Shown here piece by piece: positions 16,521 to 42,874 of a DNA stretch of 50,322 bases. How positions within the stretch are numbered: position 1 is the first letter of the stretch; each line of letters begins with the position of its first letter. The notes below the pieces were generated by a model, which was not told the DNA's origin, made no database searches, and saw only the letters and a program-made list of their open reading frames with translations. A program made the translations under genes and the position numbers. Source of the DNA: an uncultured Bacilli bacterium (GTDB taxonomy: Bacteria > Bacillota_I > Bacilli_A > RF39 > UBA660); NCBI GenBank assembly GCA_947626425.1, contig CANQRX010000002.1, forward strand, positions 1 to 50,322, in the 5' to 3' direction.

Positions 16521-16535
16521 AGGAGGGATAATATC

Positions 16536-24311: not shown

Positions 24312-24320
24312 GGGCAACTC

Positions 24321-25144: not shown

Positions 25145-25897
25145 ATGAAAGGAAAAGCCGTGTTAATTTTATTATTTATAATTATTTTGTCATGTCATCA
25201 AGTAAATGCTGAATGCAACAATAATTTACGAAGTGAAGCTGCCAATGTAACTGCTAATTATGTATTGGGGGAAGTAGTTGTAGATAATAAAGGGGTTGAA
25301 CACCCTGAACTAGATGTGGAAAAAATTAAAGAAGAAATTCAAAACAGTGCCGTCGCAGAAAATTTATCAACAAGTGATTATACAATTGTCGATATCGTTT
25401 TATTAAAAGTTTATAATATTACAAAAAATTTATATGTGACTGTTGAAGAAAGTACGGAAAACACCTTAGATACTTACTATTACGAAAATACAAACGATGG
25501 TGAATTGACCATCCGAGTACCAGACACCGATAAAATTCGTGATTATAAAGTTCGCATTTTTTCTAACGACAATTCTTGTCTAAATGAAGAAATTACCTCT
25601 TTGCCTTCGGTCAAAACGCCAATGTATAACCCTTATTCTGAATATGAAATTTGTTTAAACCAAACTAAATATTATTGTCAACCATATGTAACTACCGAGA
25701 TCACAATCACCGAAGAACAACTGTTTGCTGAATTATACAAAGAAGATGAAAACAATAATAACAATTCAGAAATTAACCAAAAAGAAAATATTGTGGTAAA
25801 AATTTTGAAAATTGGGTTACCAATCGGAATTGGCATACTGGCTTTAATTGTAGCAATTATATCAATTAGTAAAAAAGATAGGAGGAGTGACAAATGA
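25145..25897 (+). CDS. Type-I membrane protein, paralog 1 of 3 (signal peptide, 4 conserved Cys, C-terminal TM anchor)
   Basis: MKGKAVLILLFIIILSCHQVNA/ECNNNLRSEAANV.., conserved ..KTPMYNPYSEYEICLNQTKYYCQPYVTTEIT.., and a C-terminal TM helix plus basic tail. The TTG-extended start in the ORF track is unlikely. Confidence 0.7.
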   Translation: MKGKAVLILLFIIILSCHQVNAECNNNLRSEAANVTANYVLGEVVVDNKGVEHPELDVEKIKEEIQNSAVAENLSTSDYTIVDIVLLKVYNITKNLYVTVEESTENTLDTYYYENTNDGELTIRVPDTDKIRDYKVRIFSNDNSCLNEEITSLPSVKTPMYNPYSEYEICLNQTKYYCQPYVTTEITITEEQLFAELYKEDENNNNNSEINQKENIVVKILKIGLPIGIGILALIVAIISISKKDRRSDK

Positions 25898-26628
25898 AAA
25901 AAATCGGTTATTTAATTTTAGCAATATTTTGTTTATCGGCCAAAAATGTGGTAGCAGAGTGTAATCTCGATTTAAGAACTCAAGCAGCCAATGTCAAAAC
26001 AAACTATGTTATGAGTGAAATAGTTCTTGATGAATTTGGTAATGAAGTAACAAATATAAGTGTTGAAGAGGCCAAAAAAGACATTGAAGCCCATCAAGTT
26101 GCTGAAAATGTTAATACAAGTAAGTATTCTATATCAGAAATAGTTCTTTTAAAAATTTATAATTTAACAGATAAATTGTATGTGACTGTAAACGAAAGTA
26201 AAAGTAATACTTTAACTACCTATCATTACCAAGATTCTAATAATGGCGAAATAACTATAAAAGTTCCTGATGTTGATACAATTCGGGAATACAAAGTTCG
26301 CGTCTTTTCTAATGATACATCTTGTTTAGGAGAGGAAATATCATCTCCACCTTCCGTAAAAACCCCAATGTATAATCCTTATTCCGAATATGAAGTATGT
26401 TTAAATCAATCAAAATATTACTGTCAGCCTTATGTAACAACTGAAATAACTACTAATGAAGAAGATATTTTTAATGAATTATATAAAGATGAGGCTGTAA
26501 CAGACGAGGAAGAACAAGTTAAAACTAATTATTGGAAATCTTTAAAAGTGATAATTCCTTTTCTAACTGTTTTGATCTTATTAGGAGCAATTGGTTATAT
26601 ATATTTTAAGAAAAAAGGAAAAAAATAA
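25894..26628 (+). CDS. Type-I membrane protein, paralog 2 of 3
   Basis: Start overlaps the previous stop (translational coupling). Same architecture and conserved blocks as paralog 1. Confidence 0.7.
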   Translation: MKKIGYLILAIFCLSAKNVVAECNLDLRTQAANVKTNYVMSEIVLDEFGNEVTNISVEEAKKDIEAHQVAENVNTSKYSISEIVLLKIYNLTDKLYVTVNESKSNTLTTYHYQDSNNGEITIKVPDVDTIREYKVRVFSNDTSCLGEEISSPPSVKTPMYNPYSEYEVCLNQSKYYCQPYVTTEITTNEEDIFNELYKDEAVTDEEEQVKTNYWKSLKVIIPFLTVLILLGAIGYIYFKKKGKK

Positions 26629-26642: not shown

Positions 26643-27401
26643 ATGAAAAAAATACTTTTTTTATTAATTTTGATGATTTATCTTACGATAGATGTCAAAG
26701 CTACCTGTAATAATCAACTCCGTTCGCAGGCTGCCAATGTAAGTGTTAATTATGTTTTAGGGGAAGTTGCAATTACCGAAGATGGTGTTGAACACCCTGA
26801 AGTTGATCTTGAAGAATTAAGAAAAACTATTGCGGAAGGAGCGAAAATAGATCCCAACTTACGGGTAAGCGATTACTTAATTGCGGACATTGTCAATTTA
26901 AAAATTTATAATTTAACAGATAAATTATATGTAACTGTCGAAGAACAAGACGAAGGAATGATTGGCACTTTTACCTATGATGATGTAGTCGATGGCGAAA
27001 TTACAATTCGTGTTCCCGATACTGAAAAAATTCGAGAATATAAAGTTCGCGTCTTTTCTAATGATGAGAGCTGTAAGGATGAAGAAATAACATCACCTCC
27101 AGCCATTAAAACCCCAATGTATAACCCATACTCGGCTTATGAAATATGTGCTGATCAAAATGCCAATAAATATTATTGTCAAGATTATGTTGTAACTGAT
27201 GTAAATATTGATGAAGATGAATTATTTAAAAATTGGAATAATGGAAATGGTCAGAATGAAAATAATTTAAGCGACCAAACAAAAAGAACTTTTAAATTTC
27301 TCCTTTTATATGTTTTGCCTGTAACATTAATAATTTTGGTAATTTTTGTAGGTATTAAAATAAAAAGAAAGAAAAATAAAAATAAGGTTAATAATTTATA
27401 G
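26643..27401 (+). CDS. Type-I membrane protein, paralog 3 of 3
   Basis: GAGGAG RBS. Same architecture (TCNNQLRSQAANV.., KTPMYNPYSAYEICADQNANKYYCQDYV, C-terminal TM plus KRKKNKNK). Confidence 0.7.
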   Translation: MKKILFLLILMIYLTIDVKATCNNQLRSQAANVSVNYVLGEVAITEDGVEHPEVDLEELRKTIAEGAKIDPNLRVSDYLIADIVNLKIYNLTDKLYVTVEEQDEGMIGTFTYDDVVDGEITIRVPDTEKIREYKVRVFSNDESCKDEEITSPPAIKTPMYNPYSAYEICADQNANKYYCQDYVVTDVNIDEDELFKNWNNGNGQNENNLSDQTKRTFKFLLLYVLPVTLIILVIFVGIKIKRKKNKNKVNNL

Positions 27402-30400
27402 GTGATGAATGTGAAAAAAATTGGTTTGTTGATAATAATTAGTTTATTAAGCATTAATGTTGTTAATGCAGCAAAAGTAAGCGATTTAGATTACTATGAC
27501 AGAGAAGAAGAAAAATACAAATTAACAGCTGATGGCTTCAGCGCTGAATCTTCAACTTTAGAAAATGATTATTTAAAACCCGGTAGTCGAATATTAACAA
27601 AATATGACGCTTATTTAAAAGATAAAAATATAGGAGCATTTTTTTGTATATCTCCTTCTAAACCACATGGCGCAACGTATACAATAAAAAGCCAAATTGA
27701 TATCGATTCAACGAGTAAATCCCAAAAAAAAGCTTTCTATGCGGCTTTACTTAAGGCCTATCAAGAATTTATCTCGAGAGGTTTTATAAAAACTAGTACC
27801 AAAAATTATGGTGATCGAACTCGACAACTTATTACTTTGGTGTACCGTTGGATTGCTAGCTACTATGGATATTTGGATACCGATTATGCCCGTGGGGGTG
27901 TTTCTGAAGATAACTATGTTATATACACATACAGTAAACGCAAAAGTTGGGGAAGTAAAAATTGGAAAGATGATAATGGTGATGGCCTAGCGACAGTTGC
28001 TAGAGATATACTTGCTAATGCAATTCGTGTTGGTAATAAAGTAAAAAACGGTAAAACAATCAGAGAATTAGCTAATAAAGGGGAACTTTGGGATATTAAT
28101 TTTAATGTAACTGCTACCGTTTTAGATAATACAGACAAAAGCAAAGTTAAAATTCAACTAGACATTGTTCCTAAAGGAGCTACGAAAGGAACAGATATAA
28201 ATTACGACGATTTTAAAGTTGAGTGTGATTATGATTTTGAGTGTAGTAAATTTAAAATGACAGGTGATATTAAAGTTAATGGAAAAAAAGGTAAAAGATT
28301 TACTTTAACCGTAAATACTAAAAATGGTCGAACAAGTGCTGCCGAAAAAGCTGGTAAACCGTATGGAATAACTATTAAAACAAATTATAATGATATTCGC
28401 GATGGGGCATTTCTTTATGAAATGACACCAGCTAGTAAATATGTTCAAGAAATGCTTTTAATTTTATATTTTCGTCCTGATTTTGAAATTATTTCCACAG
28501 AAACTCCTAGTTGGGAAGACAAATGCTACTGTCAACGTAATAGTAAAGGAAAATTGACAGGACGTTATGAATATAAAAAATATACCGAAAGTAAGGTTAT
28601 TACAGGAACAATAGATTTATTAGATACCGAGAAAGCCGAAAAATATGAATGCCCTCCACCAGAAGATTGTGGTGTAAAAACAGTTTGCCAGTGTGATTAC
28701 GATGAAAATAACGTGTTCACTAATCAATATGCCGTTACTTATAAAAGTGAAAAAGACACTAAGGTTGAAAAATTCTCAGCAACGGATACTGAAAAAAGTG
28801 AAAAATATGCCTGCCCTCCAGCAGATTCATGTGTTAAAACTACTTGCAGTTGTCAATTTGACGATAATGTCTATACTGGAAATTATGTAGTAGAGCAAAC
28901 TGAAAACGGCGAAACAACGGAAATTATTGTTTCCGCTAATGATGTAAAAGCAAGTGAATATGGCTGTCCGCCAGTTACTTATTGTAGCGAATGTTCTTGT
29001 GAAACTGACACTAAAGGTAATTTTACAGGAAATTATTTATATTATAAAAATGGTAATTTATTTGAAAAATTTAAATTAGATGATGCGACTAAAGCTACTA
29101 AATATAGTTGTCCACCAGCCACTGATTGTGCAAATGATTGTTTTTGTCAAGTAGATGAAAATAATGAATATACCGAAAAATATCAATACAATGGTTTTGA
29201 AGATGGACGTTTAGTAACCGAAGTATTTGATTTTGATGATCCACGAGCTGAAAACTATAATTGCCCAAGTAGTAAAACATGTCATCCCCAAAGAAAAGAA
29301 TGTACTTATGAAGATGATGGAACATATTATGGTAAAAATGGTGTTGAAGTAACCAAAGATGAATATATTGCTCAATGTGTAACTAGTTGTAAAACTGAAC
29401 CTACTGGTGATGGAAATACCAAGTATTATTGCAACAGTGACAGCGAACTTATAAGTGGACCAGAATGTAGTAAAGAAGAATACGAAGAAGATTGTATATG
29501 TACACCTATGAAAGAAAAATGTGATAACGGAGATACGGCTTCTTGTGAAGAATACCAAGATAAATGTCTTCCAATTCCTTCGGATTGCAGTGCCAAAGTA
29601 ACTATTCCCGATGAGTGTGCTAATTTTGATGCAGACACCATGTTAGAAGCTGAAATTGATGATGTAAATCTTGATCCTGGTTGTGGTAAAGATAACTCAA
29701 TCAAAAAATGTGTAGTTAATGGAACCGATCAAGCTGGCAACTCTTATTTACATTTTAAAAATAATTATTGTACTGTTTGGTGTAAAGAAAAATATAATTT
29801 TACGTTACCAACAGCAAGACATACTAGAAGTGGAGGTTACTTTACATTAAGTGCTAAAATAACTGGAGAAAGAACATGCTATGCTACAGGAAGTGATGAC
29901 ACAACAACTCCAATTGATGAGCCAAGATTTCATAGAGATTTAGAGGATGCCGAAGCGGCATTACAACTGGCTTACGAAAATTATATAAGTGCCAAAAATA
30001 ATAAAGAAAACTCGGAAAGAACGTTAGAAAATTTAAATAATCAAACAACAAGTATCGAAAATGCAGTATCATATGCTCAATCAGAACTTACAATTGCCCA
30101 ATCATTATATTCAAGTGCTCGATCAGCATTGTCAAGTGCCGAATCAGAATTATCAAGTGCCGAATCAGAATTATCAAGTGCTCAAAGTGCTTTAAATTCA
30201 ATACCTGAAGGTGATGAAGCTGCAAGGACAAGTGCGTTAGCTAATGTTTCTAGAGCCAGTATTAGAGTTTCAAACGCACAAACTGCTGTTCACATAGCAC
30301 AAGCTGATATTTCTAGTGCCGCATCAAGAGCACAAAGTGCCCAAAATTCTCTAAGCGATGCCATCACTGCCAGAGATAATCATTATATAAGCATAACGAA

Positions 30401-31745
30401 TACGGAAAGAAATATTGAACTCGCAAAACAAGAGATGGCAAAAAATGAAGCCTCAATGAACGACTTAAATTCCAAAATTCAAACCTTTTTCAATGAATAT
30501 AATAGTTGTGCAAGTTGGGAAGTAGAATTTAAGTTTGATCCAAAAATTGATTATTGGTATAACGAAAAATATATGGATATTCTAACCACAGGTAATAGCG
30601 GAACATTTGAAGCAGATGGAACAACATCGCTAGATAGCACTGAAGAATATTGTTCCGGAATTGCTGATGAAAATTTTGAATGTGAAAATGGCCAAACAAG
30701 CCAAGTAAAATATAAAGATCAAAATTATGTATATTGTACAATCGAAGGGTGTGTAACTAAAAGTTCTAGATTAAATGATGTAAAGTGGATTCGTAAAAAT
30801 GAAAAATCTTCTAATTCTTATCGACCTCATGCCAACTTTTCAACATCTACTGGTTTTGGAACAATAAAAAGAAATGCCCCAGAGTGTAATGGAAACGACT
30901 GTTTATTTACGAAGTTGCCTATTAATGCTTTACCAGTTGAATTATCAACCGGCCGTGGAGTATTCCCATTTGTTTTGAAATTTAGAGATATCGGTCAATA
31001 TGCTAGTGGTTCTTTAGGAAGATTACTTGGAGCAAGTCAAAGTGTTGTAACAAGCCTATCAAGAGCTGATTCAATGTGTTCAACTCCTGGTTATAAAGCA
31101 ACAACAAGTACCTCATATGTATGTGAATATATTAATGACTGCTCTGAGTGTGAAGCTGATTGTATCAATTGTGGTAGCACCCCATATGACCCTGGTGACC
31201 CATATGACCCACCTAACATACCCGAGACTGAATGTAAAGGTCAAACATGTCCTTTAACTTGCTCATCGTGTATATATGATGGTGGTAAAACACAATTTTC
31301 ATTCCGGACAGTTTCCGTAAATAATGTTTTCCCAAATTCATGCAATAAGGCCCTAAGCAACTGTCGAAAAGAAGGATATAACTGGGATACTAATAATCCA
31401 AAAGCTAAAAAAACCTTAGAAGAAATTGAGGAAAAAGGCGAGTCAGCATATCAAGAACCAGAATATTCCTATACCCTTAATCCAGGTCAATTGCAAAATA
31501 TAAGAAAATATAATGATAAAGCCGGTACATATTTAAATACAACAATTCCTGATTCCGGCGATACAGCCTTAAAATGTGAAAGATTAGATATCAATGGAAA
31601 ATTATATAATGTAAAATGTACAAGTTCCTTTTTAGACCAAAATTCTCAAACTTATTTTAGCGAACAAAAAAGAAACACAACCTTTACATTATGGGATACT
31701 AATAATGTTAATGACTTAATTGGCATCGGACCATCTTGGAAATAA
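27402..31745 (+). CDS. Giant secreted Cys-rich protein 1 (1447 aa), putative surface adhesin/fibre component
   Basis: Signal peptide KKIGLLIIISLLSINVVNA/AK. The N-terminal domain of about 370 aa is shared with 32071-35589. Five modules of about 50 aa (C-x-C ... C-P-P-x-x-x-C) lie at about 28524-29300. There is a Ser/Ala-rich helical insert, and a Cys-rich conserved C-terminal region ending GIGPSWK. No LPXTG and no C-terminal TM. The real start may be ATG 27405 or GTG 27411 (AGGTGA at 27400-27405). Confidence 0.8.
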   Translation: MMNVKKIGLLIIISLLSINVVNAAKVSDLDYYDREEEKYKLTADGFSAESSTLENDYLKPGSRILTKYDAYLKDKNIGAFFCISPSKPHGATYTIKSQIDIDSTSKSQKKAFYAALLKAYQEFISRGFIKTSTKNYGDRTRQLITLVYRWIASYYGYLDTDYARGGVSEDNYVIYTYSKRKSWGSKNWKDDNGDGLATVARDILANAIRVGNKVKNGKTIRELANKGELWDINFNVTATVLDNTDKSKVKIQLDIVPKGATKGTDINYDDFKVECDYDFECSKFKMTGDIKVNGKKGKRFTLTVNTKNGRTSAAEKAGKPYGITIKTNYNDIRDGAFLYEMTPASKYVQEMLLILYFRPDFEIISTETPSWEDKCYCQRNSKGKLTGRYEYKKYTESKVITGTIDLLDTEKAEKYECPPPEDCGVKTVCQCDYDENNVFTNQYAVTYKSEKDTKVEKFSATDTEKSEKYACPPADSCVKTTCSCQFDDNVYTGNYVVEQTENGETTEIIVSANDVKASEYGCPPVTYCSECSCETDTKGNFTGNYLYYKNGNLFEKFKLDDATKATKYSCPPATDCANDCFCQVDENNEYTEKYQYNGFEDGRLVTEVFDFDDPRAENYNCPSSKTCHPQRKECTYEDDGTYYGKNGVEVTKDEYIAQCVTSCKTEPTGDGNTKYYCNSDSELISGPECSKEEYEEDCICTPMKEKCDNGDTASCEEYQDKCLPIPSDCSAKVTIPDECANFDADTMLEAEIDDVNLDPGCGKDNSIKKCVVNGTDQAGNSYLHFKNNYCTVWCKEKYNFTLPTARHTRSGGYFTLSAKITGERTCYATGSDDTTTPIDEPRFHRDLEDAEAALQLAYENYISAKNNKENSERTLENLNNQTTSIENAVSYAQSELTIAQSLYSSARSALSSAESELSSAESELSSAQSALNSIPEGDEAARTSALANVSRASIRVSNAQTAVHIAQADISSAASRAQSAQNSLSDAITARDNHYISITNTERNIELAKQEMAKNEASMNDLNSKIQTFFNEYNSCASWEVEFKFDPKIDYWYNEKYMDILTTGNSGTFEADGTTSLDSTEEYCSGIADENFECENGQTSQVKYKDQNYVYCTIEGCVTKSSRLNDVKWIRKNEKSSNSYRPHANFSTSTGFGTIKRNAPECNGNDCLFTKLPINALPVELSTGRGVFPFVLKFRDIGQYASGSLGRLLGASQSVVTSLSRADSMCSTPGYKATTSTSYVCEYINDCSECEADCINCGSTPYDPGDPYDPPNIPETECKGQTCPLTCSSCIYDGGKTQFSFRTVSVNNVFPNSCNKALSNCRKEGYNWDTNNPKAKKTLEEIEEKGESAYQEPEYSYTLNPGQLQNIRKYNDKAGTYLNTTIPDSGDTALKCERLDINGKLYNVKCTSSFLDQNSQTYFSEQKRNTTFTLWDTNNVNDLIGIGPSWK

Positions 31746-31935
31746 ACTAAGATGGTTTTTTTGTAGTTATTAAGGTTCAAAAAATTTCTAGTTGAAAAAA
31801 GGGAAAATGTTTGGTATTATTAACCTCATATATCTGGTTGTTGAATTTTAAATAAATCAAGAAAAAGATATAAAAAATTTTAACAACTTTGCTAAATCAG
31901 AATTTATAAAAAATAAAATGGAGTATATTAAGACA

Positions 31936-31964
31936 TTGAAAAAATTAAGAGTATTTGTTATAAT
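31936..31964 (+). promoter_or_regulatory. Sigma-A-type promoter TTGAAA-N17-TATAAT upstream of giant gene 2
   Basis: Read directly, about 107 nt upstream of ATG 32071. Confidence 0.55.
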
Positions 31965-32070: not shown

Positions 32071-35000
32071 ATGAAAAAGAAGTTAACAATATTTTTGTTA
32101 AGTTTAAGTTTATTTTTGGGTGTTTGTTTAAAAAATACCCAAGCTGCCGAGGTCTATGATCGGGTTAAAAGTGGATACAAAATATCTGGAACATTTACCA
32201 ATACAGGTATTAGTTATTTTCTCGAAGTAGGTTATAAATATGGTGCTCCTAGTACCGGTAGTTATAATGCTTATAAAAATGGCATTGATGGAATATTTAT
32301 ATGTATTTCACCAGATAAAGATGCTGGAACCTATTATAAAGCGGTTACCGAAGTTAACCCAGATTCACCATCTGTTAAAAATAAAAATACGCGTGCTTTT
32401 TATGTTGCTGTAATTAAGGCATATCAAATTATGGTTGACAGTGGGGAAATTACAACTAAAAAAAGTAATGGTCGCTATTCATATACTGACCGTCAAAAAT
32501 TCTTATTAATTGTTCGTTGGTTAGCAAGTAAATATGGATTATTAGATACTAGCCACCCAAGTAGTTCAACAACTCCGGCTGGTAACTATAAAAAATATGT
32601 TTATTCTGATAGAAGCAAATATTGGAATACGTCCAATTCAACTATTAAAAGAGCTGAAGCTGTAACTAAAGCTGCGATAAAAGTTGGAGATAAAATACTA
32701 AAAGGTTCAACTTACCAAAAACTTATTGATAATGGTGATGTTTGGGGCGCTAGATGGGAAAGTACTGCTCCAACTGTCGAAACCAATGCAAAGAAACCAA
32801 ATTTAGTAACTATAAAGTTTGATGTCAAAGCTAAAAACAGTATTCAAAAAATAAATTACAAAGATTTTAAAGTAGAATGTAATTATGGTTATAAGTGTAA
32901 AGATGTAACAATTAAGACTAAAAAGGAAACTACGAAAAAAGGTAAAGAAAAACAATACATAAGTGTAAGTATTGTTGTCGATACAACTAATGGTAAAAAA
33001 CATAAAGCTCAAAATGCTGGGCAACCATATGGAGTTGTTGTTAAAACTAATTTTTATGATTACCATGATTCATCTCATTTATTCTTATTTAATCCAACAG
33101 TTAGTACAAAACAAAAGATGTTACTAATTAGAGATTATAACCAATCAATGCAAATTGTTACTAAGTTTGTTCCAGAATGGGAAGATATTTGTTCTTGCCA
33201 AAAAGATAGCAACGGCAATTACACTGGAAAATATGAGTTGAAAACAATTGTTAATGGTGTTGTAAAAACCGAAGAATTTGGTTTTAACGATAAAAAAGCT
33301 AAAAAATATGATTGTCCTGATTCTTCAAAATGTGTTAGTGAACCTAATCCATCATGTCAAACACCAGATGAAAGTGATGATGGAAATTATCATTGTAAAG
33401 ATGGTGAAGTTTGTGACGAAGAAAAATACAAAGAAGACTGTGATACAGGTAAGAAACCATCATGTCAAACACCAGATGAAAGCGATGACGGAAAATATCA
33501 CTGCAAAGATGGCGAAGTTTGTGACGAAGAAAAATACAAAGAAGACTGTGATACAGGTAAGAAACCATCATGTCAAACACCAGATGAAAGCGATGACGGA
33601 AAATATCACTGCAAAGATGGCGAAGTTTGTGACGAAGAAAAATACAAAGAAGACTGTGATACAGGTAAGAAACCATCATGTCAAATACCAAGTGAAAGTG
33701 ATGATGGAAATTATCATTGTAAAGATGGTGAAGTTTGTGACAAAGATGAATATGAAGATGACTGTTTATGCCCTGAATTAAAGGATAAATGTGAAGAAAA
33801 TCCTGATGATCCTGCTTGCGGTGAATACAAGGAAAAATGTCCAAATTGTTCAGCAACGGTTACAGTTCCAAACAATTGTAATGATTTTGATGCTGAATCA
33901 ACAGTAGACGGTGTTATTAGCGATATTAATGAAACAGCAAGTAGTTGTAATCCAACAGCTAACTTAGTTAAAACCTGTGTAATTGATAAAAAGGATCAAG
34001 CTGGTTCAAGTTTTGAAGCAACCAATGAAATAAAAAATAACCCTTATTGTAAAGTATGGTGTAAAGAAAAATATGAATTCTCATTACCAACAGCAAAATA
34101 TACTCAAAGTGGTGGTTATTTCCAATTAACAATGAAAATAGCTGCTAAAAGAGATTGTTATGTAAGTGCAGCAGATGACCCAGATAATCCAATTGATAAG
34201 ACAAAATTCTTAAGTGATTTAAGTACTGCTGAAACTGCGGTTAAAAATGCTTATAACGAATATAGTAAATTAAACAATGATGCTAATTTATCTGCTTTAA
34301 ATTCTGCTAAAGAAAAAGTGGAAAGTATTATTAGTGATTTTAATAGTTGTTCAAATGGTTGGAGTAATAATTTCGTTTATAACCCAGAAATTGAATATGA
34401 TTATTACAATGACTATTTAACTAATAGTAAAGGAACATTTGAAAAAATTGAAGGAACCGATACAATGACTAGTGAAGATACTTATTGCTCTGGAGATACT
34501 GATGAAAGTTACAATTGTAAATCAGGTGCATCAAACACTATGCAAACTGAAACTCAAAGCTATGAAAATTGTGATGCTCAAGGATGTAGTGTTAAAACTG
34601 CTCAAATAAGTACAGCTAAATGGATTCAAAAAACTAAAATAGTTGCCAATGCTCAATATCAACCAAAAGAAAAATTCTCAACTTATACAAGTTATGGTAT
34701 AATAAAAATAGATGAACCTAGATGTAATGGTAAAGATTGCTTATATACAAGACTTCCAGATAGTTCATTACCTGTTCAATTAACAACTGGTAAAGGAGTA
34801 TTCCCATTCACATTTACATTTAAAAATATTGGTCAATCAAATACTGATAATAATTTAGGTCGTCTAATTGGTTCTGATAACAGTATTGTAAAAGCCTTTA
34901 ATGAATTACCTGATGAATACCGTTGTTCAAAAGACAATGCAACTGATGCATATGGTGGATATGTTTGTCATTACATTAACAACTGTGATGGATGTGACTT

Positions 35001-35589
35001 TGAATGTGTTGGTGACGATTGTAAGTTTGAAGATGAAGAAGAAAATTGCGAAGGTCCAACTTGTCCATTAACATGTGTAAACTGTGTATTTGATGGTCAA
35101 GAAGCAACTTATACCTTTAGAGCTGTGTCCCTTGCTAATTTATTCCCAAATGAATGTGATGAAAATTCTGATAGTAGTGAATGTCGTACAACCGGCTATA
35201 ACTGGGACGTTGGTGAAAAAGCTAGTTTAACTAAGAAAGCAATCCAAGAAGAAGGTAATAATATCTATATTGAACCAGAATATTCATATACAATGAATTC
35301 CTCACAACTAAGTGCTATTAGAGAATATAATCAAAAAGTTGGTTCATATTCTAATACCACAACTGGAGCATTCTTTAACAACGAACCAGCATTGAAATGC
35401 AATGTTGTTGAAATAAATGGAATTCAATATGAGGTTGAATGTTTATCTACATTCTTATCAAACGGAAATGGTAAATACTTTACCGAAAATAAACGAAATA
35501 CTGAATTTGAACTATGGTCAAATACAGAATATTGCTTAAGCGGTAGCTGTTTAGATCGTAAAAAAGGCGTAGGACCGTCTTGGAAGTAG
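32071..35589 (+). CDS. Giant secreted Cys-rich protein 2 (1172 aa), paralog of 27402-31745
   Basis: GGGGGA RBS and signal peptide (..CLKNTQA/AEV). Shares the N-terminal domain, one C-x-C...C-P module and the entire Cys-rich C-terminal region (..YCKVWCKEKYEFSLPTAKYTQSGGYF.., ends GVGPSWK) with protein 1. Contains four 36-aa tandem repeats. Confidence 0.8.
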   Translation: MKKKLTIFLLSLSLFLGVCLKNTQAAEVYDRVKSGYKISGTFTNTGISYFLEVGYKYGAPSTGSYNAYKNGIDGIFICISPDKDAGTYYKAVTEVNPDSPSVKNKNTRAFYVAVIKAYQIMVDSGEITTKKSNGRYSYTDRQKFLLIVRWLASKYGLLDTSHPSSSTTPAGNYKKYVYSDRSKYWNTSNSTIKRAEAVTKAAIKVGDKILKGSTYQKLIDNGDVWGARWESTAPTVETNAKKPNLVTIKFDVKAKNSIQKINYKDFKVECNYGYKCKDVTIKTKKETTKKGKEKQYISVSIVVDTTNGKKHKAQNAGQPYGVVVKTNFYDYHDSSHLFLFNPTVSTKQKMLLIRDYNQSMQIVTKFVPEWEDICSCQKDSNGNYTGKYELKTIVNGVVKTEEFGFNDKKAKKYDCPDSSKCVSEPNPSCQTPDESDDGNYHCKDGEVCDEEKYKEDCDTGKKPSCQTPDESDDGKYHCKDGEVCDEEKYKEDCDTGKKPSCQTPDESDDGKYHCKDGEVCDEEKYKEDCDTGKKPSCQIPSESDDGNYHCKDGEVCDKDEYEDDCLCPELKDKCEENPDDPACGEYKEKCPNCSATVTVPNNCNDFDAESTVDGVISDINETASSCNPTANLVKTCVIDKKDQAGSSFEATNEIKNNPYCKVWCKEKYEFSLPTAKYTQSGGYFQLTMKIAAKRDCYVSAADDPDNPIDKTKFLSDLSTAETAVKNAYNEYSKLNNDANLSALNSAKEKVESIISDFNSCSNGWSNNFVYNPEIEYDYYNDYLTNSKGTFEKIEGTDTMTSEDTYCSGDTDESYNCKSGASNTMQTETQSYENCDAQGCSVKTAQISTAKWIQKTKIVANAQYQPKEKFSTYTSYGIIKIDEPRCNGKDCLYTRLPDSSLPVQLTTGKGVFPFTFTFKNIGQSNTDNNLGRLIGSDNSIVKAFNELPDEYRCSKDNATDAYGGYVCHYINNCDGCDFECVGDDCKFEDEEENCEGPTCPLTCVNCVFDGQEATYTFRAVSLANLFPNECDENSDSSECRTTGYNWDVGEKASLTKKAIQEEGNNIYIEPEYSYTMNSSQLSAIREYNQKVGSYSNTTTGAFFNNEPALKCNVVEINGIQYEVECLSTFLSNGNGKYFTENKRNTEFELWSNTEYCLSGSCLDRKKGVGPSWK
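33349..33780 (+). repeat. In-frame tandem repeat, 4 x 108 bp (36 aa: PSCQTPDESDDG-N/K-YHCKDGEVCDEEKYKEDCDTGKK)
   Basis: Units start at 33349, 33457, 33565 and 33673. Units 2 and 3 are identical. Units 1 and 4 share a different set of synonymous variants, and unit 4 diverges at its 3' end. Confidence 0.9.
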
Positions 35590-35598
35590 GAGGATATT

Positions 35599-36042
35599 AT
35601 GAAAGAATCTTATTGGGGTTATTGGATAATTGTACTAGGTGTATTTATCATCGTCATAATGATGTTAATATCTAATGTGACAACGACTAATACTCAAGAC
35701 TATTATTTAATAAAAGAAGTATCAGAAGCTTCGATGGTAGATGCAATAGATTATGCGTATTATCGTCAAAGTGGTGAATTAAGAATTAATCGTGAAAAAT
35801 TTGTAGAAAGCTTTTTAAGACGCTTTGCTGAAAATGTTTCACTTAGTACATATACTGTAAATTTTTACGATATATATGAAGCACCACCTAAAGCAAGTGT
35901 TGAAGTTATAACCAAAAGCAATACTTATAATATAAATTCTGATGCCCAAAGTTTTGATATTGTTAATAGAATAGATGCAATATTAGAACTAGATGGTACT
36001 GCAGAATCAGGAACGTTTGATAACTTACAATCAAATCCTTAA
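35599..36042 (+). CDS. Small N-terminally membrane-anchored protein (possible pseudopilin-like or assembly factor)
   Basis: AGGAGG RBS 10 nt after the giant gene stop. MKESYWGYWIIVLGVFIIVIMMLIS hydrophobic N-terminus, then a soluble domain of about 115 aa. It sits directly upstream of the Tad-like core. Confidence 0.55.
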   Translation: MKESYWGYWIIVLGVFIIVIMMLISNVTTTNTQDYYLIKEVSEASMVDAIDYAYYRQSGELRINREKFVESFLRRFAENVSLSTYTVNFYDIYEAPPKASVEVITKSNTYNINSDAQSFDIVNRIDAILELDGTAESGTFDNLQSNP

Positions 36043-36080: not shown

Positions 36081-36914
36081 ATGGGAAATTTATTATCAAA
36101 ACTTAAAAGGTTTTTAGAAAATAAAAATACAGTAACAATTTTATGTGTAATCGCGGGAATTGCAGTTTTGTATATTGGTTATAATTGGCGGGTTAATTCA
36201 GCTATTAGTCCGACATCTATTCCTTATGCAAAAACTGCTTTACCTTCACGTCATGTTATAACATCAGATGATATTGGTTATATGGAAGTTTCTAGTGCGG
36301 TCGTTAATCGTAGTTCTAATATTATTAGAAATTCCAATTTAATTATTGGTAAAGAGGTAATGTATGGTACTACCATTCCTCAAAATAGTTTTTTCTATGA
36401 TAGTGCAATTACCGATTCTAATTTACAACCAGATGATGTTATGGCTGATATTCCAAACGGCTATACATTGTTTACTTTATCAGTAGACTTACATACTACT
36501 TATGGTAACTCTATTTATCCTGGAAATTATATTGATTTATGGTTTAAGGGTGTAGATGATTACAACAAAATAATGTATACCAACTTAATAAGAAGTATTA
36601 AAGTTTCCGATGTTCGGGATAGTAATGGTCAATCTGTTTTTGAAACATCTATGGAAAAAAGAACACCATCTGAATTATTATTTGCAGTTCCTGATGATAT
36701 GTATTCTTTGCTTAAAAAAGCTCAATACATTGGTGGGGTAGAAATAATACCAGTTCCAAGAAACCGTAATTATACTGCCAATCCTGGAGAAACAGAAGTT
36801 GCTAGTGATTATGTAAAAGAATTTATTTTATCAAAAACCGCAATTATTCCAGATGAAAATATAAGTACAAACACAAATGATAATAACGATGAAAACAATA
36901 ATGTAGAAGAATAA
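36081..36914 (+). CDS. CpaB/RcpC-like Flp pilus assembly protein (SAF-domain protein)
   Basis: AGGAGG RBS and an N-terminal TM helix. This is followed by a SAF-like segment (IPYAKTALPSRHVITSDDIGYMEV...IIGKEVMYGTTIPQNSFF). It lies immediately upstream of a CpaF/TadA-type ATPase. Confidence 0.5.
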   Translation: MGNLLSKLKRFLENKNTVTILCVIAGIAVLYIGYNWRVNSAISPTSIPYAKTALPSRHVITSDDIGYMEVSSAVVNRSSNIIRNSNLIIGKEVMYGTTIPQNSFFYDSAITDSNLQPDDVMADIPNGYTLFTLSVDLHTTYGNSIYPGNYIDLWFKGVDDYNKIMYTNLIRSIKVSDVRDSNGQSVFETSMEKRTPSELLFAVPDDMYSLLKKAQYIGGVEIIPVPRNRNYTANPGETEVASDYVKEFILSKTAIIPDENISTNTNDNNDENNNVEE

Positions 36915-36933
36915 CAAGAAAGGGGTGCCGGCC

Positions 36934-38061
36934 ATGAATGATGCTATATTTTCGCAATTAGACTTTGGGCCAATCGAAGAATTTTTAAGAAATGAAGATG
37001 TAACAGATATTTCTTATAGTAATAATGGCTGTGTTTGGTTAAAATCACTTTCTCAAGGTTGCTATAAAGTTGAACGACCTGAAATAAATAATGCACTTAT
37101 GGAAAAATTAGCATTTCAGTGTGCAAATGTTATGGGTAAAACATTTAACATGGCCCATCCTTTCTTAGATGCAGAAAGTGCCGAATTACGTTTAAATTTT
37201 GTTCATGATTCCATTGCTACAAATGGAATTGCTTGCGTTATCCGTAAAACACCAGCCAAAATCCGATTAAATAAAACTAAATTATTAGATGAAAAATACG
37301 TTTCCGAAAGTGTTCATGATTTTTTGATTAAATGTGTAGAAGGTCATGCCAATATAATTGTCAGTGGAGAAACTGGTTCCGGAAAAACCGAATTAGTTAA
37401 ATACTTAGCTTCACATACCAAAGAAAACGAAAAAGTTATTACCATTGAAGATACATTGGAGTTACATTTAGACCGAATTTTTCCTCATCGGGATATTGTG
37501 GCAATGAAAACTAATAATATTGCGAGTTATTCAGATGTTTTAGTAACATGTATGCGTCAAAATCCCATTTGGATATTACTTTCCGAAGTTCGTAGTGCTG
37601 AAGCGGTTATGGCCGTCCGTAACTCGATTTCTTCAGGGCACCACATTTTATCAACAATTCACTCCGATAAAGCAAGTTTAATTCCGATGCGTATGTATTC
37701 TTTAGTTGAATCAAACATTGATGTCGAACAGTTTGTCGCGACAATTCACCGATACGTCCAAATAGGAGTCTATGTAAAAGGTTATTTAAGTAAAGAACTG
37801 GGTAGATTTCAAAGAGAAATATTGGAAGTTTGTGAATTTTATGTTGATGATAATAATAAGCCAAAAACAAATATTATATTTAAAAAAACTTTAACAGGTG
37901 AGATTACTATGAATAATCCTACCGAACATTTAAGAGATTATTTAGGTATTTCAGGGGTTCTTTTACCAGATGACATTTTTGCATCAGAAAAAGATAATTC
38001 TGATTCTAGTCAAATGGCTAATAATACTTCATCTGATATTGAGCAGATAGAAACTTTATAA
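36934..38061 (+). CDS. CpaF/TadA-type secretion ATPase (VirB11/GspE superfamily)
   Basis: Walker A VSGETGSGKTE, ITIEDTLEL, Walker B-like IWILLSEVRSAEA, and His-box-like HHILSTIHS. Size of about 375 aa is typical of TadA/CpaF. Confidence 0.8.
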   Translation: MNDAIFSQLDFGPIEEFLRNEDVTDISYSNNGCVWLKSLSQGCYKVERPEINNALMEKLAFQCANVMGKTFNMAHPFLDAESAELRLNFVHDSIATNGIACVIRKTPAKIRLNKTKLLDEKYVSESVHDFLIKCVEGHANIIVSGETGSGKTELVKYLASHTKENEKVITIEDTLELHLDRIFPHRDIVAMKTNNIASYSDVLVTCMRQNPIWILLSEVRSAEAVMAVRNSISSGHHILSTIHSDKASLIPMRMYSLVESNIDVEQFVATIHRYVQIGVYVKGYLSKELGRFQREILEVCEFYVDDNNKPKTNIIFKKTLTGEITMNNPTEHLRDYLGISGVLLPDDIFASEKDNSDSSQMANNTSSDIEQIETL

Positions 38062-41695: not shown

Positions 41696-41766
41696 ATTGT
41701 CTTTTCGACAAAATTGTGTATATTTTTTGATCTTTAATCCACACTATAAGTGGAAAGGAGATCTCT

Positions 41767-42519: not shown

Positions 42520-42576
42520 GGTATTGAAATTAACTTTCGGTTCTTCCAAAAGTTTCCGAAAAGGCTGAATATTCGA

Positions 42577-42602
42577 AGTAGATAGAAATATCTGCTTTTT
42601 TA
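42577..42602 (+). terminator. Rho-independent terminator closing the long + strand gene array
   Basis: AGTAGATA-GAAA-TATCTGCT 8-bp stem (one G-U pair) followed by T6. Confidence 0.6.
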
Positions 42603-42839
42603 CGTTGATACAATAAATAGAAAATTTTAATTCATTCTTATGGAACCAAATATTTTAAAGTTCAGGGGTACGTAAAAGAAGAATTCAAGATACTCTATTT
42701 TTATAAAAGTGTTTATATTGAATTAAGGGAATGTAGCTTCCAAACTTAAAAATTTTTACATAAAAAATTCCGTTTGCAAGAAAAAAATTAAAAAAAGTTC
42801 TTCCAGAAACTTTCGAGAGAACCTAAATATAAGTTATAT

Positions 42840-42868
42840 TTGTACAGAGAACATTTGTTCAATATAAT
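42840..42868 (+). promoter_or_regulatory. Orphan sigma-A-type promoter TTGTAC-N17-TATAAT
   Basis: Read directly. No ORF of 60 aa or more follows on the + strand. Confidence 0.4.
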
Positions 42869-42874
42869 GTTAAT

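What the first reader, a model, noticed from the sequence alone, without database searches (positions are those of the whole stretch)
27402..31745. 1447-aa secreted protein built from repeated C-x-C ... C-P-P-x-x-x-C modules
After a shared N-terminal domain come five divergent modules of about 50 aa (about 28524-29300). Each starts with C-x-C-(Q/E), carries a (T)G-x-Y motif, and ends with K-Y-x-C-P-P-x-x-x-C. They are followed by further Cys-dense segments and a long Cys-rich C-terminal region conserved in the paralog (YC.VWCKEKY.F.LPTA..T.SGGYF; C-x-x-C clusters near the end; terminal GPSWK).

Dozens of extracellular cysteines are unusual for a low-GC, probably anaerobic, Gram-positive. They imply disulfide- or metal-stabilised domains. 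There is no LPXTG, choline-binding, SLH or TM anchor, so retention must rely on partner proteins.
Basis: seen in the sequence. Interest (0 to 1): 0.7.

Follow-up and report, generated by a model that had tools for sequence, protein, structure and literature searches.

The report
Disulfide-stapled adhesin beside Tad-like pilus genes
This huge, cysteine-packed secreted protein of an uncultured gut Bacilli bacterium belongs to an unnamed family that sits, with a small membrane partner, at the head of a very divergent type IV (Tad-like) pilus operon, and it looks like a stalked adhesin whose tip domain carries the Cys/Gln signature of covalent "thioester" adhesins.

Summary
The gene encodes a 1444-1446-aa Sec-exported protein with 61 Cys, five divergent about 50-aa CxC...CP(P/S)xxxC modules, a conserved Cys-rich C-terminal half, a terminal GPSWK, and a 1172-aa paralog.

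It is one member of an unannotated family: 353 clusters at 50% identity, no Pfam, NCBIfam or PDB match, and no Foldseek match beyond coiled coils.

Cysteines are gained and lost in pairs. 83% of members have an odd mature Cys count, and the odd Cys lies in the N-terminal domain. So the protein is disulfide-stapled apart from one lone Cys.

That Cys (C81, motif YC[IL][DS]P) and Gln348 (QRML) are the only invariant N-domain residues. They resemble the bond-forming motifs of class II thioester domains, and the predicted secondary-structure order agrees. Profile and fold searches do not confirm membership.

In 9 of 10 independent loci the gene follows a co-conserved type-I membrane protein. It precedes DUF5411, CpaB-like, VirB11/CpaF-like ATPase, two polytopic membrane genes and pilin-like genes.

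Best reading: a stalked surface adhesin, possibly covalent, that works with this Tad-like filament system. I rate it a new variant of a known kind, moderately to highly interesting.

The parts
25145..25897 (+). Type-I membrane partner, paralog 1. It has a signal peptide, an ectodomain of about 170 aa with 4 Cys, a C-terminal TM helix and a basic tail. The ORF as listed starts at TTG 25091.
   Evidence: 29-35% identity to the single partner gene of locus L004. A partner gene lies directly upstream of the large gene in all loci. No Pfam or NCBIfam family.
25894..26628 (+). Type-I membrane partner, paralog 2.
26643..27401 (+). Type-I membrane partner, paralog 3.
27402..31745 (+). The large Cys-rich secreted protein, which is the finding itself. 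The ORF runs from GTG 27402. The probable start is GTG 27411, after the SD GGTGA at 27401-27405.
27405..27470 (+). Sec (SPase I) signal peptide, aa 1-22, cleaved at VNA|AK.
   Evidence: Read from the sequence. It is the only hydrophobic segment in the protein.
27537..28514 (+). N-terminal head domain, aa 45-370. It is thioester-domain-like, with invariant Cys81 (codon 27645-27647, motif FFCISP) and invariant Gln348 (codon 28446-28448, motif VQEMLLI).
   Evidence: Invariance. Odd Cys count in this domain in 76 of 78 relatives. AF2 gives pLDDT of about 81-97 for most of the domain, with the order 4 strands, helices, 7-strand sandwich, hairpin. hhalign versus class II TEDs. Motif definitions: PMC6194298, PMC8092201.
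28524..29282 (+). Five tandem, divergent modules of about 50 aa, CxC...CP(P/S)xxxC, spanning aa 374-626. These form the stalk (type-1 modules, 4 Cys each).
   Evidence: AF2 predicts three strands plus short helices per module, pLDDT about 57-91. The module is single-copy in most relatives (consensus; counts).
29301..29609 (+). Second Cys-dense stalk segment, aa 633-735. It includes one type-2 module (YYC...G.EC..EEY...C) and a helical CxxxxxxC region.
   Evidence: Cys pairs 699/714 and 706/721 co-occur.
29610..29918 (+). First part of the conserved C-terminal core, aa 736-838. It contains YCTVWCKEKYNFTLPTA..SGGYF.
   Evidence: pLDDT 85-98.
29919..30515 (+). Antiparallel helical hairpin, aa 839-931 and 938-1037. 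It is inserted at the hypervariable site of the core and contains a degenerate 21/42-nt repeat at 30074-30185.
   Evidence: AF2, (helices 150-242 and 249-348 of the model, pLDDT 84-98). TRF. The length of this region varies from 67 to 386 aa in relatives. Only coiled-coil matches were found.
30516..31742 (+). Second part of the conserved C-terminal core, aa 1038-1446. It is beta-rich with many invariant Cys.
31158..31304 (+). Cys/Pro-rich CxxC cluster loop, aa 1252-1300, predicted with low confidence.
   Evidence: pLDDT below 50. The flanking Cys 1240, 1246, 1249, 1253, 1277, 1282, 1286 and 1289 are conserved in 84-90 of 90 relatives.
31728..31742 (+). C-terminal G-P-S-W-K, the near-universal end of the family.
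   Evidence: AF2 confidence is low for the last residues.
31728..31758 (+). Terminator-like hairpin (12 bp stem, followed by TTTTTGTAGTT) that overlaps the stop codon.
31936..31964 (+). Best sigma-70-like promoter match of the region (TTGAAA-17-TATAAT, extended -10), upstream of the paralog.
   Evidence: This is a consensus match only.
32071..35589 (+). Paralog, 1172 aa. It has the same head, one type-1 module, four type-2 modules, the same core with a short hairpin, and ends in GPSWK. It occupies the canonical operon position.
35599..36042 (+). DUF5411 protein. It starts MKESYWGYW followed by a hydrophobic helix, which is pilin-like.
   Evidence: (E 4.4e-58).
36081..36914 (+). CpaB/RcpC-like protein.
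   Evidence: (20.4 bits, below the cut-off). The L004 orthologs score 31.0 and 30.3 bits, above the cut-off. It is 58% identical to the L004 copy.
36925..38061 (+). Secretion ATPase of the VirB11/CpaF/FlaI type.
   Evidence: (T2SSE, E 1e-25), and (VirB11-like 1.4e-16, CpaF 1.8e-16, FlaI 2.4e-15).
38078..39762 (+). Two polytopic membrane proteins (298 and 262 aa) in the position of TadB and TadC.
   Evidence: Their position and size are conserved in all operon copies. There is no profile support.

Best explanation
The protein is a stalked cell-surface adhesin that belongs functionally to a divergent Tad-like type IV filament system.

Proposed mechanism:
1. It is exported by Sec and its signal peptide is removed.
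2. All but one of its about 60 cysteines form intradomain disulfides. These staple the five CxC...CPPxxxC modules, the second Cys-rich module type and the C-terminal core into a rigid, protease- and force-resistant stalk and base. This is the role that isopeptide and ester cross-links play in sortase-anchored TIE adhesins.
3. The conserved C-terminal core (about 600-700 aa, ending in GPSWK) is the attachment module. It holds the protein on the cell or filament through the co-conserved type-I membrane partner and/or the pilin-like DUF5411 protein encoded immediately downstream.
4. The N-terminal head is the binding end. Its single unpaired, invariant Cys81 and invariant Gln348 probably form an internal thioester that reacts covalently with a ligand, as in class II thioester domains.
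5. The long helical hairpin sits at the hypervariable site of the family and is a second exposed, diversifying surface.

Shown: export signal, family, paired-Cys pattern, one lone Cys in the head, operon association.
Inferred: adhesin function, thioester, the way it is attached.
For: Family and architecture:
- 353 clusters at E <= 1e-3, all with a signal peptide and 2.4-6.8% Cys, and nearly all ending in GP[SA]WK.
- 108 members are unnamed and carry no Pfam domain.

Disulfides:
- Eight Cys column pairs appear and disappear together (r 0.72-1.0).
- 123 of 149 full-length members have an odd mature Cys count (p = 2.7e-16).
- The head domain is odd in 76 of 78 members and the rest of the protein is even in 64 of 78.
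- In this protein the head has C81 plus the C274/C280 pair.

Head domain:
- The only invariant residues among 16-87 heads are C81 and Q348.
- PMC6194298 states the same for thioester domains, with motifs [YFL]C-phi-zeta and phi-Q-zeta-phi-phi.
- The family consensus TYC(I/L)DPG..YG and YQRMLxV resembles pLS20 TIE, which has YCIDPDKPAPYGG and SSYQRLMS.
- hhalign of the head profile against 11 plasmid class II TEDs scores 31.6 (P 0.0014). Cys, a YG motif and Gln align colinearly. The score is above 150 column-shuffled controls (mean 12.3, max 18.9).
- The AF2 secondary-structure order fits the published class II topology: Cys on the third strand, three long helices, a seven-strand sandwich, then the hairpin region holding Gln348.

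Operon:
- The order partner, large protein, DUF5411, CpaB-like, ATPase, two membrane proteins, 2-3 small MKEATGELN pilin-like proteins, two mid-size pilin-like proteins and a 340-aa protein is conserved in 9 of 10 independent loci.

Variability typical of exposed adhesins:
- Module copy number varies: five type-1 modules here, one in the paralog and in the family consensus.
- The paralog has a 108-bp x3.9 repeat at 93%.
- The hairpin region ranges from 67 to 386 aa.
- Two paralogs lie side by side.

Literature: DUF5411/CpaF operons of Clostridia were independently flagged as a secretion- or pilus-like system that includes an internalin-like protein (PMC9523054).
Against: - There is no direct evidence of adhesion or of any physical link to a filament.
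- TED membership is not confirmed. There is no Pfam TED or NCBIfam hit even at E <= 10. The profile search of the PDB found nothing. No TED structure appears in the top 50 Foldseek hits. HMM-versus-sequence scores are no better than a reversed control. The hhalign signal comes mostly from 22-28 columns around the Cys, and the Gln half alone is not significant.
- In this window the operon lacks the pilin-like genes and the 340-aa gene, so a filament may not be made from this locus alone.
- Pilin identity of the small proteins rests on sequence features only.
- One relative (L001) has the partner and large gene without the machine genes next to it.
- No thiol oxidase is encoded in the window.
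Confidence: 0.5

Rival explanations
1. It is a structural part of the Tad-like machine rather than an adhesin. It would be a wall-spanning conduit or scaffold, a monoderm substitute for secretin/RcpA-type components, held in the membrane by the type-I partner.
For: The partner/large-protein pair is found at the head of 9 of the 10 independent loci, ahead of the machine genes. The C-terminal core is strongly conserved, with dozens of invariant positions. The long helical hairpin is reminiscent of periplasmic adaptor proteins; HlyD is among the weak Foldseek hits.
Against: The head, the stalk copy number and the hairpin insert are hypervariable, and the gene is duplicated into 34-40% identical paralogs. 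That is unusual for a core channel part. There is no fold match to secretins, adaptors or ring-building motifs beyond the coiled coil (TM <= 0.21). L001 keeps the pair without adjacent machine genes.
Confidence: 0.15
2. It is a mating or cell-to-cell adhesin for DNA transfer. It would act like the TED adhesin TIE of pLS20, with the VirB11-like ATPase system acting in conjugation or DNA exchange rather than in host adhesion.
For: In L005, L006 and L009 a VirD4/TraG-type coupling protein and a large cell-wall hydrolase lie just upstream of the partner gene. The best NCBIfam matches of the ATPase are VirB11, conjugal TadA and TrbB. A class II TED adhesin is needed for efficient pLS20 conjugation (PMC8092201).
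Against: The coupling protein is present in only one lineage of the loci examined and is absent from the window. No relaxase or VirB4 is seen. The locus sits in a conserved chromosomal neighbourhood (Metallophos and Rce1-like genes) rather than in a mobile element. All ATPase matches are below the family cut-offs.
Confidence: 0.12
3. It is a secreted toxin or effector that the ATPase system helps to release. The helical hairpin would act as a membrane-inserting element.
For: There is no anchor. Foldseek lists Tc toxins, colicins and an alpha-pore-forming toxin among the best matches of the C-terminal model.
Against: All those matches are coiled-coil alignments with TM 0.08-0.21 and rmsd above 20 A. 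The long hairpin is specific to this protein, and the paralog has a short one. No toxin domain is found by Pfam, NCBIfam or PADLOC-independent profile searches. A Sec-exported protein of a monoderm does not need a second secretion step.
Confidence: 0.06
4. The lone head-domain Cys is not a thioester. It would be a catalytic nucleophile, a free thiol or a site for an intermolecular bond. Alternatively, part of the C-terminal CxxC clusters binds metal instead of forming disulfides.
For: TED membership failed the profile and fold searches. The CxxC/CxxxC cluster at aa 1240-1289 is invariant as a block, so pairing cannot be inferred there, and the loop it flanks (aa 1252-1300) is modelled with low confidence.
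Against: No invariant His or Asp accompanies the Cys, and the only other invariant residue is a Gln. The partner protein has an even number of mature Cys (4), so it offers no free thiol. The even count outside the head in 64 of 78 members fits full pairing.
Confidence: 0.25

Closest known systems
TIE proteins: thioester-domain adhesins of Gram-positive bacteria (for example BaTIE, SaTIE, TIE of pLS20, and Cpa of S. pyogenes pili)
   Same: Both are Sec-exported, with an N-terminal head whose only universally conserved residues are one Cys and one Gln, in [YFL]C-phi-zeta and phi-Q-zeta-phi-phi motifs. Both have a long stalk of repeated, internally cross-linked small domains and a C-terminal attachment device. 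The secondary-structure order of the head matches the class II description (PMC6194298).
   Different: There is no Pfam or NCBIfam TED match and no Foldseek match. The Cys-Gln spacing is 267 aa, against 171-204 aa in the solved class II TEDs. The TQXX-phi-W motif is not recognisable. The stalk is stapled by disulfides rather than isopeptide or ester bonds. There is no LPXTG or sortase signal. Instead there is a conserved 600-700-aa Cys-rich core ending in GPSWK, and the gene sits in a type IV filament operon.
PilY1/PilC-type non-pilin tip adhesins of type IVa pili (comparison from my own knowledge)
   Same: Both are large (about 1000-1200 aa) Sec-exported non-pilin proteins, encoded next to minor-pilin-like genes of a type IV filament system, with a variable N-terminal part and a conserved C-terminal part.
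   Different: No beta-propeller and no sequence or fold similarity was detected. The system here is monoderm and Tad-like. The dedicated type-I membrane partner has no PilY1 counterpart.
Tad pili with minor-pilin tip complexes that expose variable domains (Myxococcus Kil system, PMC12075869)
   Same: The concept is the same: a Tad-type filament is functionalised by interchangeable, variable accessory proteins encoded with the machine.
   Different: Those tips are pilins with class III signal peptides. The protein here has a classical Sec signal peptide and is not a pilin.
DUF5411/CpaF/PilC operon of gut Clostridia, predicted as an uncharacterised secretion-related system (PMC9523054)
   Same: It shares DUF5411, a CpaF-like ATPase, membrane platform genes and an adhesin-like (internalin-like) gene in one operon.
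   Different: It was described in Roseburia, Ruminococcus and Eubacterium. The Cys-rich family and its membrane partner were not described there. It was predicted from gene context and never tested experimentally.

Membership tests
Thioester domain (TED, class II) / TIE adhesins | Bond-forming Cys in a [YFL]-C-hydrophobic-hydrophilic motif, universally conserved | tested here: met
   C81 is invariant in 87 of 87 aligned heads. The motif is F-C-I-S-P here and consensus (T)Y-C-(I/L)-(D/S)-P. pLS20 TIE has YCIDP.
Thioester domain (TED, class II) / TIE adhesins | Bond-forming Gln in a weak hydrophobic-Q-hydrophilic-hydrophobic-hydrophobic motif, universally conserved | tested here: met
   Q348 is conserved in 86 of 87 heads. 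The motif is V-Q-E-M-L here and consensus Y-Q-R-M-L. pLS20 TIE has Y-Q-R-L-M.
Thioester domain (TED, class II) / TIE adhesins | The Cys is not disulfide-bonded, so it is free to form the thioester | tested here: met
   The head-domain Cys count is odd in 76 of 78 relatives and the rest of the protein is even in 64 of 78. In this protein the head has C81 plus the co-varying pair C274/C280. This is indirect, statistical evidence.
Thioester domain (TED, class II) / TIE adhesins | TQXX-hydrophobic-W motif on helix alpha2 | tested here: not met
   No such motif was found. The helices carry A-Y-Q-x-L and F-R-W-I-x-x-x-Y-G instead.
Thioester domain (TED, class II) / TIE adhesins | Sequence-profile match to TED models (Pfam PF08341/PF20610, NCBIfam) or to solved TEDs | tested here: not met
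   No hit even at E <= 10. Local HMM scores are no better than the reversed control. Profile-profile hhalign is above shuffled controls but weak (score 31.6, P 0.0014, probability 17%) and mostly local to the Cys motif.
Thioester domain (TED, class II) / TIE adhesins | TED fold: beta-barrel plus three-helix bundle, with a beta-sandwich insert and a slipknot hairpin carrying the Gln | tested here: inconclusive
   The order of DSSP elements in the AF2 model fits: four strands with Cys on the third, long helices, a seven-strand sandwich, and Gln348 just before strand 350-354. Foldseek against the PDB returned no TED in the top 50 and nothing with E <= 1e-3.
Thioester domain (TED, class II) / TIE adhesins | An actual Cys-Gln thioester bond (-17 Da, amine reactivity) | not testable with these tools
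   This needs mass spectrometry of the recombinant head domain.
Sortase-anchored (LPXTG) surface proteins | C-terminal LPXTG-type motif, hydrophobic helix and basic tail | tested here: not met
   The protein ends in ...IGIGPSWK, with no hydrophobic segment after the signal peptide.
Tad / type IV filament system (for the operon) | Secretion ATPase of the TadA/CpaF/VirB11 superfamily | tested here: met
   T2SSE E 1e-25, above the cut-off. PDB matches: CpaF 1.8e-16, VirB11-like 1.4e-16. No specific NCBIfam equivalog cut-off is reached.
Tad / type IV filament system (for the operon) | CpaB/RcpC-like protein | tested here: met
   The L004 orthologs score 31.0 and 30.3 bits against a cut-off of 28.8. 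The window copy scores 20.4 bits and is 58% identical to an L004 copy.
Tad / type IV filament system (for the operon) | TadB/TadC (GspF-like) platform proteins | tested here: inconclusive
   Two polytopic proteins of 298 and 262 aa are conserved in the right position, but they have no profile or PDB match.
Tad / type IV filament system (for the operon) | Flp-type or type IV prepilins with a class III signal peptide, and a prepilin peptidase | tested here: inconclusive
   Related loci encode 2-3 proteins of 76-89 aa that all start with MKEATGELN plus a hydrophobic helix, and larger ones that start with MREAIGGTW or MRQAIGTTW. The only profile hint is Pilin_N at E 0.25. No such genes are in this window, and no peptidase was seen in any locus.
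PilY1/PilC tip adhesins | C-terminal beta-propeller domain homologous to PilY1 | tested here: not met
   No Pfam hit and no propeller among the Foldseek matches.

The most novel reading that the evidence does not exclude
This family would be a previously unrecognised class of covalent (thioester) adhesins. They would be displayed not by sortase but by a divergent Tad-like type IV filament system through a new Cys-rich docking domain and a dedicated membrane partner. Their stalks would be built from disulfide-stapled mini-domains instead of isopeptide domains. That would be a second, independent way for Gram-positive gut bacteria to build a 'chemical harpoon'.
Probability: 0.3. Interest if true: 0.8.

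Novelty: new variant of a known kind. Interest (0 to 1): 0.62.

Why it matters
The family is large: 353 clusters at 50% identity across rabbit, human (Hadza) and other samples. It is completely unannotated and restricted so far to uncultured low-GC Bacilli.

If the reading is right, it links three things that are normally separate in Gram-positive biology:
- type IV/Tad-like filaments;
- thioester-type covalent adhesion;
- extensive extracellular disulfide bonding in a phylum known for excluding Cys from exported proteins (PMC2823432).

It would give a function to DUF5411 operons, which have been flagged but never explained (PMC9523054). It would supply a new disulfide-stapled repeat module and a new attachment domain for structural study. 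It would also point to a colonisation factor of gut commensals that cannot yet be grown.

The Cys-parity signature is a simple, testable prediction for biochemistry.

Tried and rejected
1. Full-length word-indexed homolog search returned only one 97% relative. The coiled-coil words swamped the candidate list. This was solved with the exhaustive HMMER search using the paralog and a trimmed core alignment.
2. Pfam, NCBIfam and PHROGs gave only coiled-coil noise for both large proteins: SEC10/PgrA at 30 bits against a cut-off of 70, SMC, and tail proteins.
3. No plasmid homolog was found by tblastn. The locus is chromosomal, flanked by EzrA, ThiI, Dus and RecG.
4. PDB sequence-profile searches with the core and with the head found nothing meaningful.
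5. Foldseek on both AF2 models:
 - The C-part matched only coiled coils in the PDB and BFVD (Tc toxins, JetABC, SMC, tape-measure proteins; TM <= 0.23). I rejected these as evidence of toxin or phage origin.
 - The N-part matched only weak Ig-like hits.
6. I searched the window for the pilin-like, pseudopilin-like and 340-aa genes of related operons. They are absent.
7. The last homolog search, meant to enlarge the TED profile, returned only three Listeria proteins. The TED profile therefore stayed at 11 plasmid sequences.
8. HMM-versus-sequence tests of TED against the head were no better than the reversed control.
9. An intermolecular disulfide between the lone Cys and the partner is unlikely, because the partner has 4 mature Cys.
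10. A papain-like or other Cys-His enzyme reading is unsupported, because there is no invariant His.
11. The lineage could not be pinned down. NCBI labels are 'uncultured Bacilli bacterium' and 'Candidatus Ventrenecus sp.', and the paper text that names the latter was beyond the held portion.

Full report
**1. The observation**

The ORF 27402-31745 (+) is intact. A GGTGA Shine-Dalgarno at 27401-27405 and the start of the 97%-identical database protein P0001 (MKKIG...) point to GTG 27411 as the real start. I number from ATG 27405 (1446 aa).

The N-terminus is a classical Sec signal peptide, cleaved at VNA|AK after residue 22. The protein has no other hydrophobic segment and no LPXTG-like signal.

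It holds 61 Cys (4.22%). The neighbouring paralog 32071-35589 holds 58 (4.95%). The other 41 ORFs of the window average 1.19%.

They align with 28-41% identity, and the four Cys, a Thr, two Tyr, an Asp and a Pro are invariant. The conserved YC.VWCKEKY...SGGYF stretch, the C-terminal CxxC clusters and the terminal GPSWK are all there and are shared with the paralog (34-40% identity in three blocks).

**2. A large, unannotated family**

Neither large protein matches any Pfam, NCBIfam or PHROG family, apart from coiled-coil noise. The core profile finds nothing in the PDB.

An exhaustive HMMER search with the paralog found:
- 353 cluster representatives at E <= 1e-3;
- 132 at E <= 1e-30.

Of the 150 listed, most are 900-1500 aa, nearly all full-length ones have a signal peptide, Cys content is 2.4-6.8%, and nearly all end in G-P-[SA]-W-K, a few with 5-6 extra residues.

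A word-indexed search with a trimmed core alignment returned 108 proteins. None is named by any source and none has a precomputed Pfam domain. All come from MAGs or metagenomes. The few labels available are 'uncultured Bacilli bacterium' (rabbit gut) and 'Candidatus Ventrenecus sp.'.

The window itself is chromosomal Bacilli DNA, carrying EzrA, ThiI, Dus, RecG and a sortase.

**3. Anatomy**

AlphaFold2 with family alignments gave usable models:
- residues 1-759, mean pLDDT 78.3;
- residues 690-1446, mean pLDDT 80.3.

From the N-terminus the protein consists of:
- an alpha/beta head (about aa 45-370);
- five small three-stranded modules;
- a second Cys-dense segment with one 'YYC...G.C..EY...C' module;
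- a beta-rich conserved core split by an antiparallel helical hairpin of about 93 + 100 residues (aa 839-1037);
- a low-confidence Cys/Pro-rich loop (aa 1252-1300);
- a poorly packed C-terminal tail ending in GPSWK.

Foldseek found no significant structural relative. For the C-part, every PDB and viral match is a coiled-coil alignment with TM <= 0.23 (Tc toxins, colicins, SMC/JetABC, tape-measure proteins). For the N-part, nothing reaches E <= 1e-3.

In the family consensus the type-1 module is present once. Five copies occur only here and in P0001. The paralog instead carries four type-2 modules, encoded by a 108-bp x3.9 tandem repeat that is 93% matched. The region between the two halves of the core varies from 67 to 386 aa among relatives. 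So stalk length and hairpin tip are the variable parts, and the core is the constant part.

**4. Disulfides, and one Cys left over**

Where Cys columns vary in the family they vary in pairs:

| Cys pair | r |
|---|---|
| 274/280 | 0.84 |
| 620/658 | 0.86 |
| 676/688 | 0.72 |
| 699/714 | 0.88-0.92 |
| 706/721 | 0.81-0.89 |
| 760/1225 | 0.95 |
| 1161/1166 | 0.95 |
| 1313/1320 | 1.0 |

This is the expected footprint of disulfides rather than of 3-4-ligand metal sites.

The parity of the counts adds to this:
- 123 of 149 full-length members have an odd number of Cys after the signal peptide is removed (p = 2.7e-16), although the counts range widely.
- Splitting the proteins shows that the head domain is odd in 76 of 78 and the remainder even in 64 of 78.
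- In this protein the head has C81 plus the C274/C280 pair, leaving 58 Cys elsewhere.

The cleavage sites were predicted crudely and the sequences are related to each other, so the p-values are indicative only. The effect is nevertheless large. The family is fully disulfide-paired apart from one Cys in the head. This is unusual for Firmicutes, whose exported proteins tend to exclude Cys (PMC2823432). No thiol oxidase gene is present in the window.

**5. The head looks like a thioester domain**

Across 16 diverse heads the only invariant residues are C81 and Q348. Across 87 sequences they are conserved in 87/87 and 86/87.

The published definition of thioester domains (TEDs) states three things (PMC6194298):
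- the bond-forming Cys lies in [YFL]C-hydrophobic-hydrophilic;
- the Gln lies in a weak hydrophobic-Q-hydrophilic-hydrophobic-hydrophobic motif;
- these two residues are the only universally conserved ones.

The family motifs are (T)YC(I/L)(D/S)P...YG and YQRML.V. The conjugation adhesin TIE of pLS20, a class II TED, has YCIDPDKPAPYGG and SSYQRLMS (PMC8092201).

Profile-profile tests:
- I built a profile of 11 class II TEDs from plasmids.
- hhalign against a 77-sequence head profile scores 31.6 (P 0.0014). It aligns Cys to Cys, a YG motif to YG, and Gln to Gln, in order.
- 150 column-shuffled controls average 12.3 (maximum 18.9), and the reversed profile scores 11.9.
- The DSSP order of the model fits the class II description: four strands with the Cys on the third, long helices, a seven-strand sandwich, and Gln348 just before strand 350-354.

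Against this:
- Pfam TED models, NCBIfam and PDB profiles give nothing even at E <= 10.
- HMM-versus-sequence scores equal the reversed control.
- The hhalign signal is mostly 22-28 columns around the Cys, and the Gln half alone is not significant.
- The TQXX-phi-W motif is absent.
- Foldseek did not list any TED.
- I could not read coordinates to measure the Cys-Gln distance.

I therefore do not file the head as a TED member. I consider 'works like a TED' the best single explanation of an invariant, unpaired Cys with an invariant Gln (about 45-50%).

**6. Genomic context**

Downstream of the paralog lie:
- DUF5411 (E 4.4e-58);
- a CpaB/RcpC-like protein;
- a secretion ATPase equally close to VirB11, CpaF and FlaI;
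- two polytopic membrane proteins.

In nine of ten independent loci from rabbit, human and other metagenomes the order is as follows:
1. A type-I membrane protein of about 245 aa.
2. The large Cys-rich protein.
3. DUF5411.
4. One or two CpaB-like genes.
5. The ATPase.
6. The 298-aa membrane protein.
7. The 262-aa membrane protein.
8. Two or three proteins of 76-89 aa.
9. Two proteins of about 150-175 aa.
10. A protein of about 340 aa.

The small proteins all begin with MKEATGELN followed by a hydrophobic helix, and each has four or more Cys. The mid-size ones begin with MREAIGGTW or MRQAIGTTW, and DUF5411 begins with MKESYWGYW. These are pilin-like N-termini, but profile support is nearly nil (Pilin_N at E 0.25).

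A DUF5411/CpaF/PilC operon with an internalin-like gene was flagged in gut Clostridia as an uncharacterised secretion-related system (PMC9523054).

The window's copy is atypical:
- It has three partner genes and two large genes.
- A terminator-like hairpin lies on the stop codon of the finding's gene, and the best promoter-like site of the region lies before the paralog.
- It lacks the pilin-like genes and the 340-aa gene. In their place are a 614-aa N-anchored protein, a sortase-B-type substrate and a sortase.

One relative (L001) keeps only the partner/large-gene pair, next to an EssC-like ATPase and a wall hydrolase. One lineage has a VirD4-like coupling protein and a hydrolase just upstream.

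**7. Interpretation**

The most economical reading is a stalked adhesin. It would have:
- a reactive or binding head;
- a stalk whose length is set by the copy number of disulfide-stapled mini-domains;
- a conserved C-terminal docking domain that replaces the sortase signal of classical TIE adhesins and ties the protein to the membrane partner and/or to the pilin-like DUF5411 protein of a Tad-like filament.

This resembles PilY1-type non-pilin tip proteins of type IV pili (my own knowledge) and the variable tip complexes of Tad pili (PMC12075869).

The rivals are:
- a wall-spanning structural part of the machine;
- a mating adhesin for DNA transfer;
- a toxin;
- a non-thioester role for the lone Cys.

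Each is weighed in its own section above. None is excluded, and none fits the variability pattern, the parity data and the context as well.

**8. Verdict**

The feature is real and belongs to an unannotated family. By function it is most probably a new variant of known kinds (TIE-like adhesin, filament-associated adhesin). By sequence and fold it is unlike any curated family.

Interest is 0.62. Confidence in the overall mechanism is about 0.5.

Noticed in passing
window 33349-33765: The paralog contains a 108-bp tandem repeat (3.9 copies, 93% matches). It encodes near-identical 36-aa four-Cys units (PSCQTPDESDDGKYHCKDGEVCDEEKYKEDCDTGKK). This is a recent expansion and a likely site of length variation.
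   Followed up: partly
window 39851-44009: Where related operons carry pilin-like genes and a 340-aa gene, this window has three other genes. One is a 614-aa N-anchored protein. One is a 250-aa Pectate_lyase_5 'adhesive domain' protein with a C-terminal NPQTA motif, hydrophobic helix and basic tail, which is a sortase-B-type sorting signal. The third is a sortase on the minus strand (43191-44009, TLSTC motif).
   Followed up: partly
window 12491-14768 and 39851-41695: Three tandem paralogs of about 205-225 aa start MKTK(H/Y)KILL...SLYVVQSYALWSYTAPQ. The 614-aa protein has a similar ...GITYAYWNVT after its N-terminal helix. This may be a shared unusual signal peptide or processing site (TasA/SipW-like?). 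There were no Pfam hits.
   Followed up: no
window 31728-31758 and 31936-31964: A 12-bp-stem terminator-like hairpin overlaps the stop codon of the finding's gene. The best promoter-like site of the 18-kb region precedes the paralog. The three partner genes plus the finding's gene therefore look like a separate transcription unit placed in front of the canonical operon.
   Followed up: partly
window 14886-18170: Two adjacent 544-aa paralogs carry AAA-ATPase_like plus PDDEXK_9 nuclease domains.
   Followed up: no
window 854-1294, 7094-7612, 20349-21206: Toxin-antitoxin-type genes are scattered in the window: an AbiEii fragment, a SocA/Panacea antitoxin-like gene and a HipA_C kinase-like gene. 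ToxN genes lie next to the operon in L001, L005 and L009.
   Followed up: no
L005 3772-8899 and L009 3633-8900: In one human-gut lineage three genes lie directly upstream of the partner gene: a large wall hydrolase (lysozyme + M23, or CHAP), a protein of about 225-248 aa, and a VirD4/TraG-type coupling protein. SpoIVA lies just downstream of the operon.
   Followed up: partly
L010 17720-21198: A family-2 glycosyltransferase and a YfhO-like membrane protein are inserted between the platform genes and three pilin-like genes. This suggests glycosylation of the pilin-like proteins in that lineage.
   Followed up: no
L001 3540-8087: The relative without adjacent machine genes sits next to a 1515-aa FtsK/SpoIIIE multi-ATPase (EssC-like, type VII secretion type) and is followed by an NlpC/P60 hydrolase.
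   Followed up: no
P0001 versus window residues about 1157-1195: The 97%-identical database protein lacks about 39 residues (APECNGNDCLFTKLPINALPVELSTGRGVFPFVLKFR), including the invariant GVFPF motif. This is either a natural deletion or an assembly artefact.
   Followed up: no
window 23466-25016 (minus strand); also L002, L004, L005, L008, L009: A Metallophos phosphoesterase and an Rce1-like (CPBP) intramembrane protease are conserved, divergently oriented, near the operon in distant relatives. Whether the protease acts on the conserved GPSWK tail or on the pilin-like leaders is unknown.
   Followed up: no
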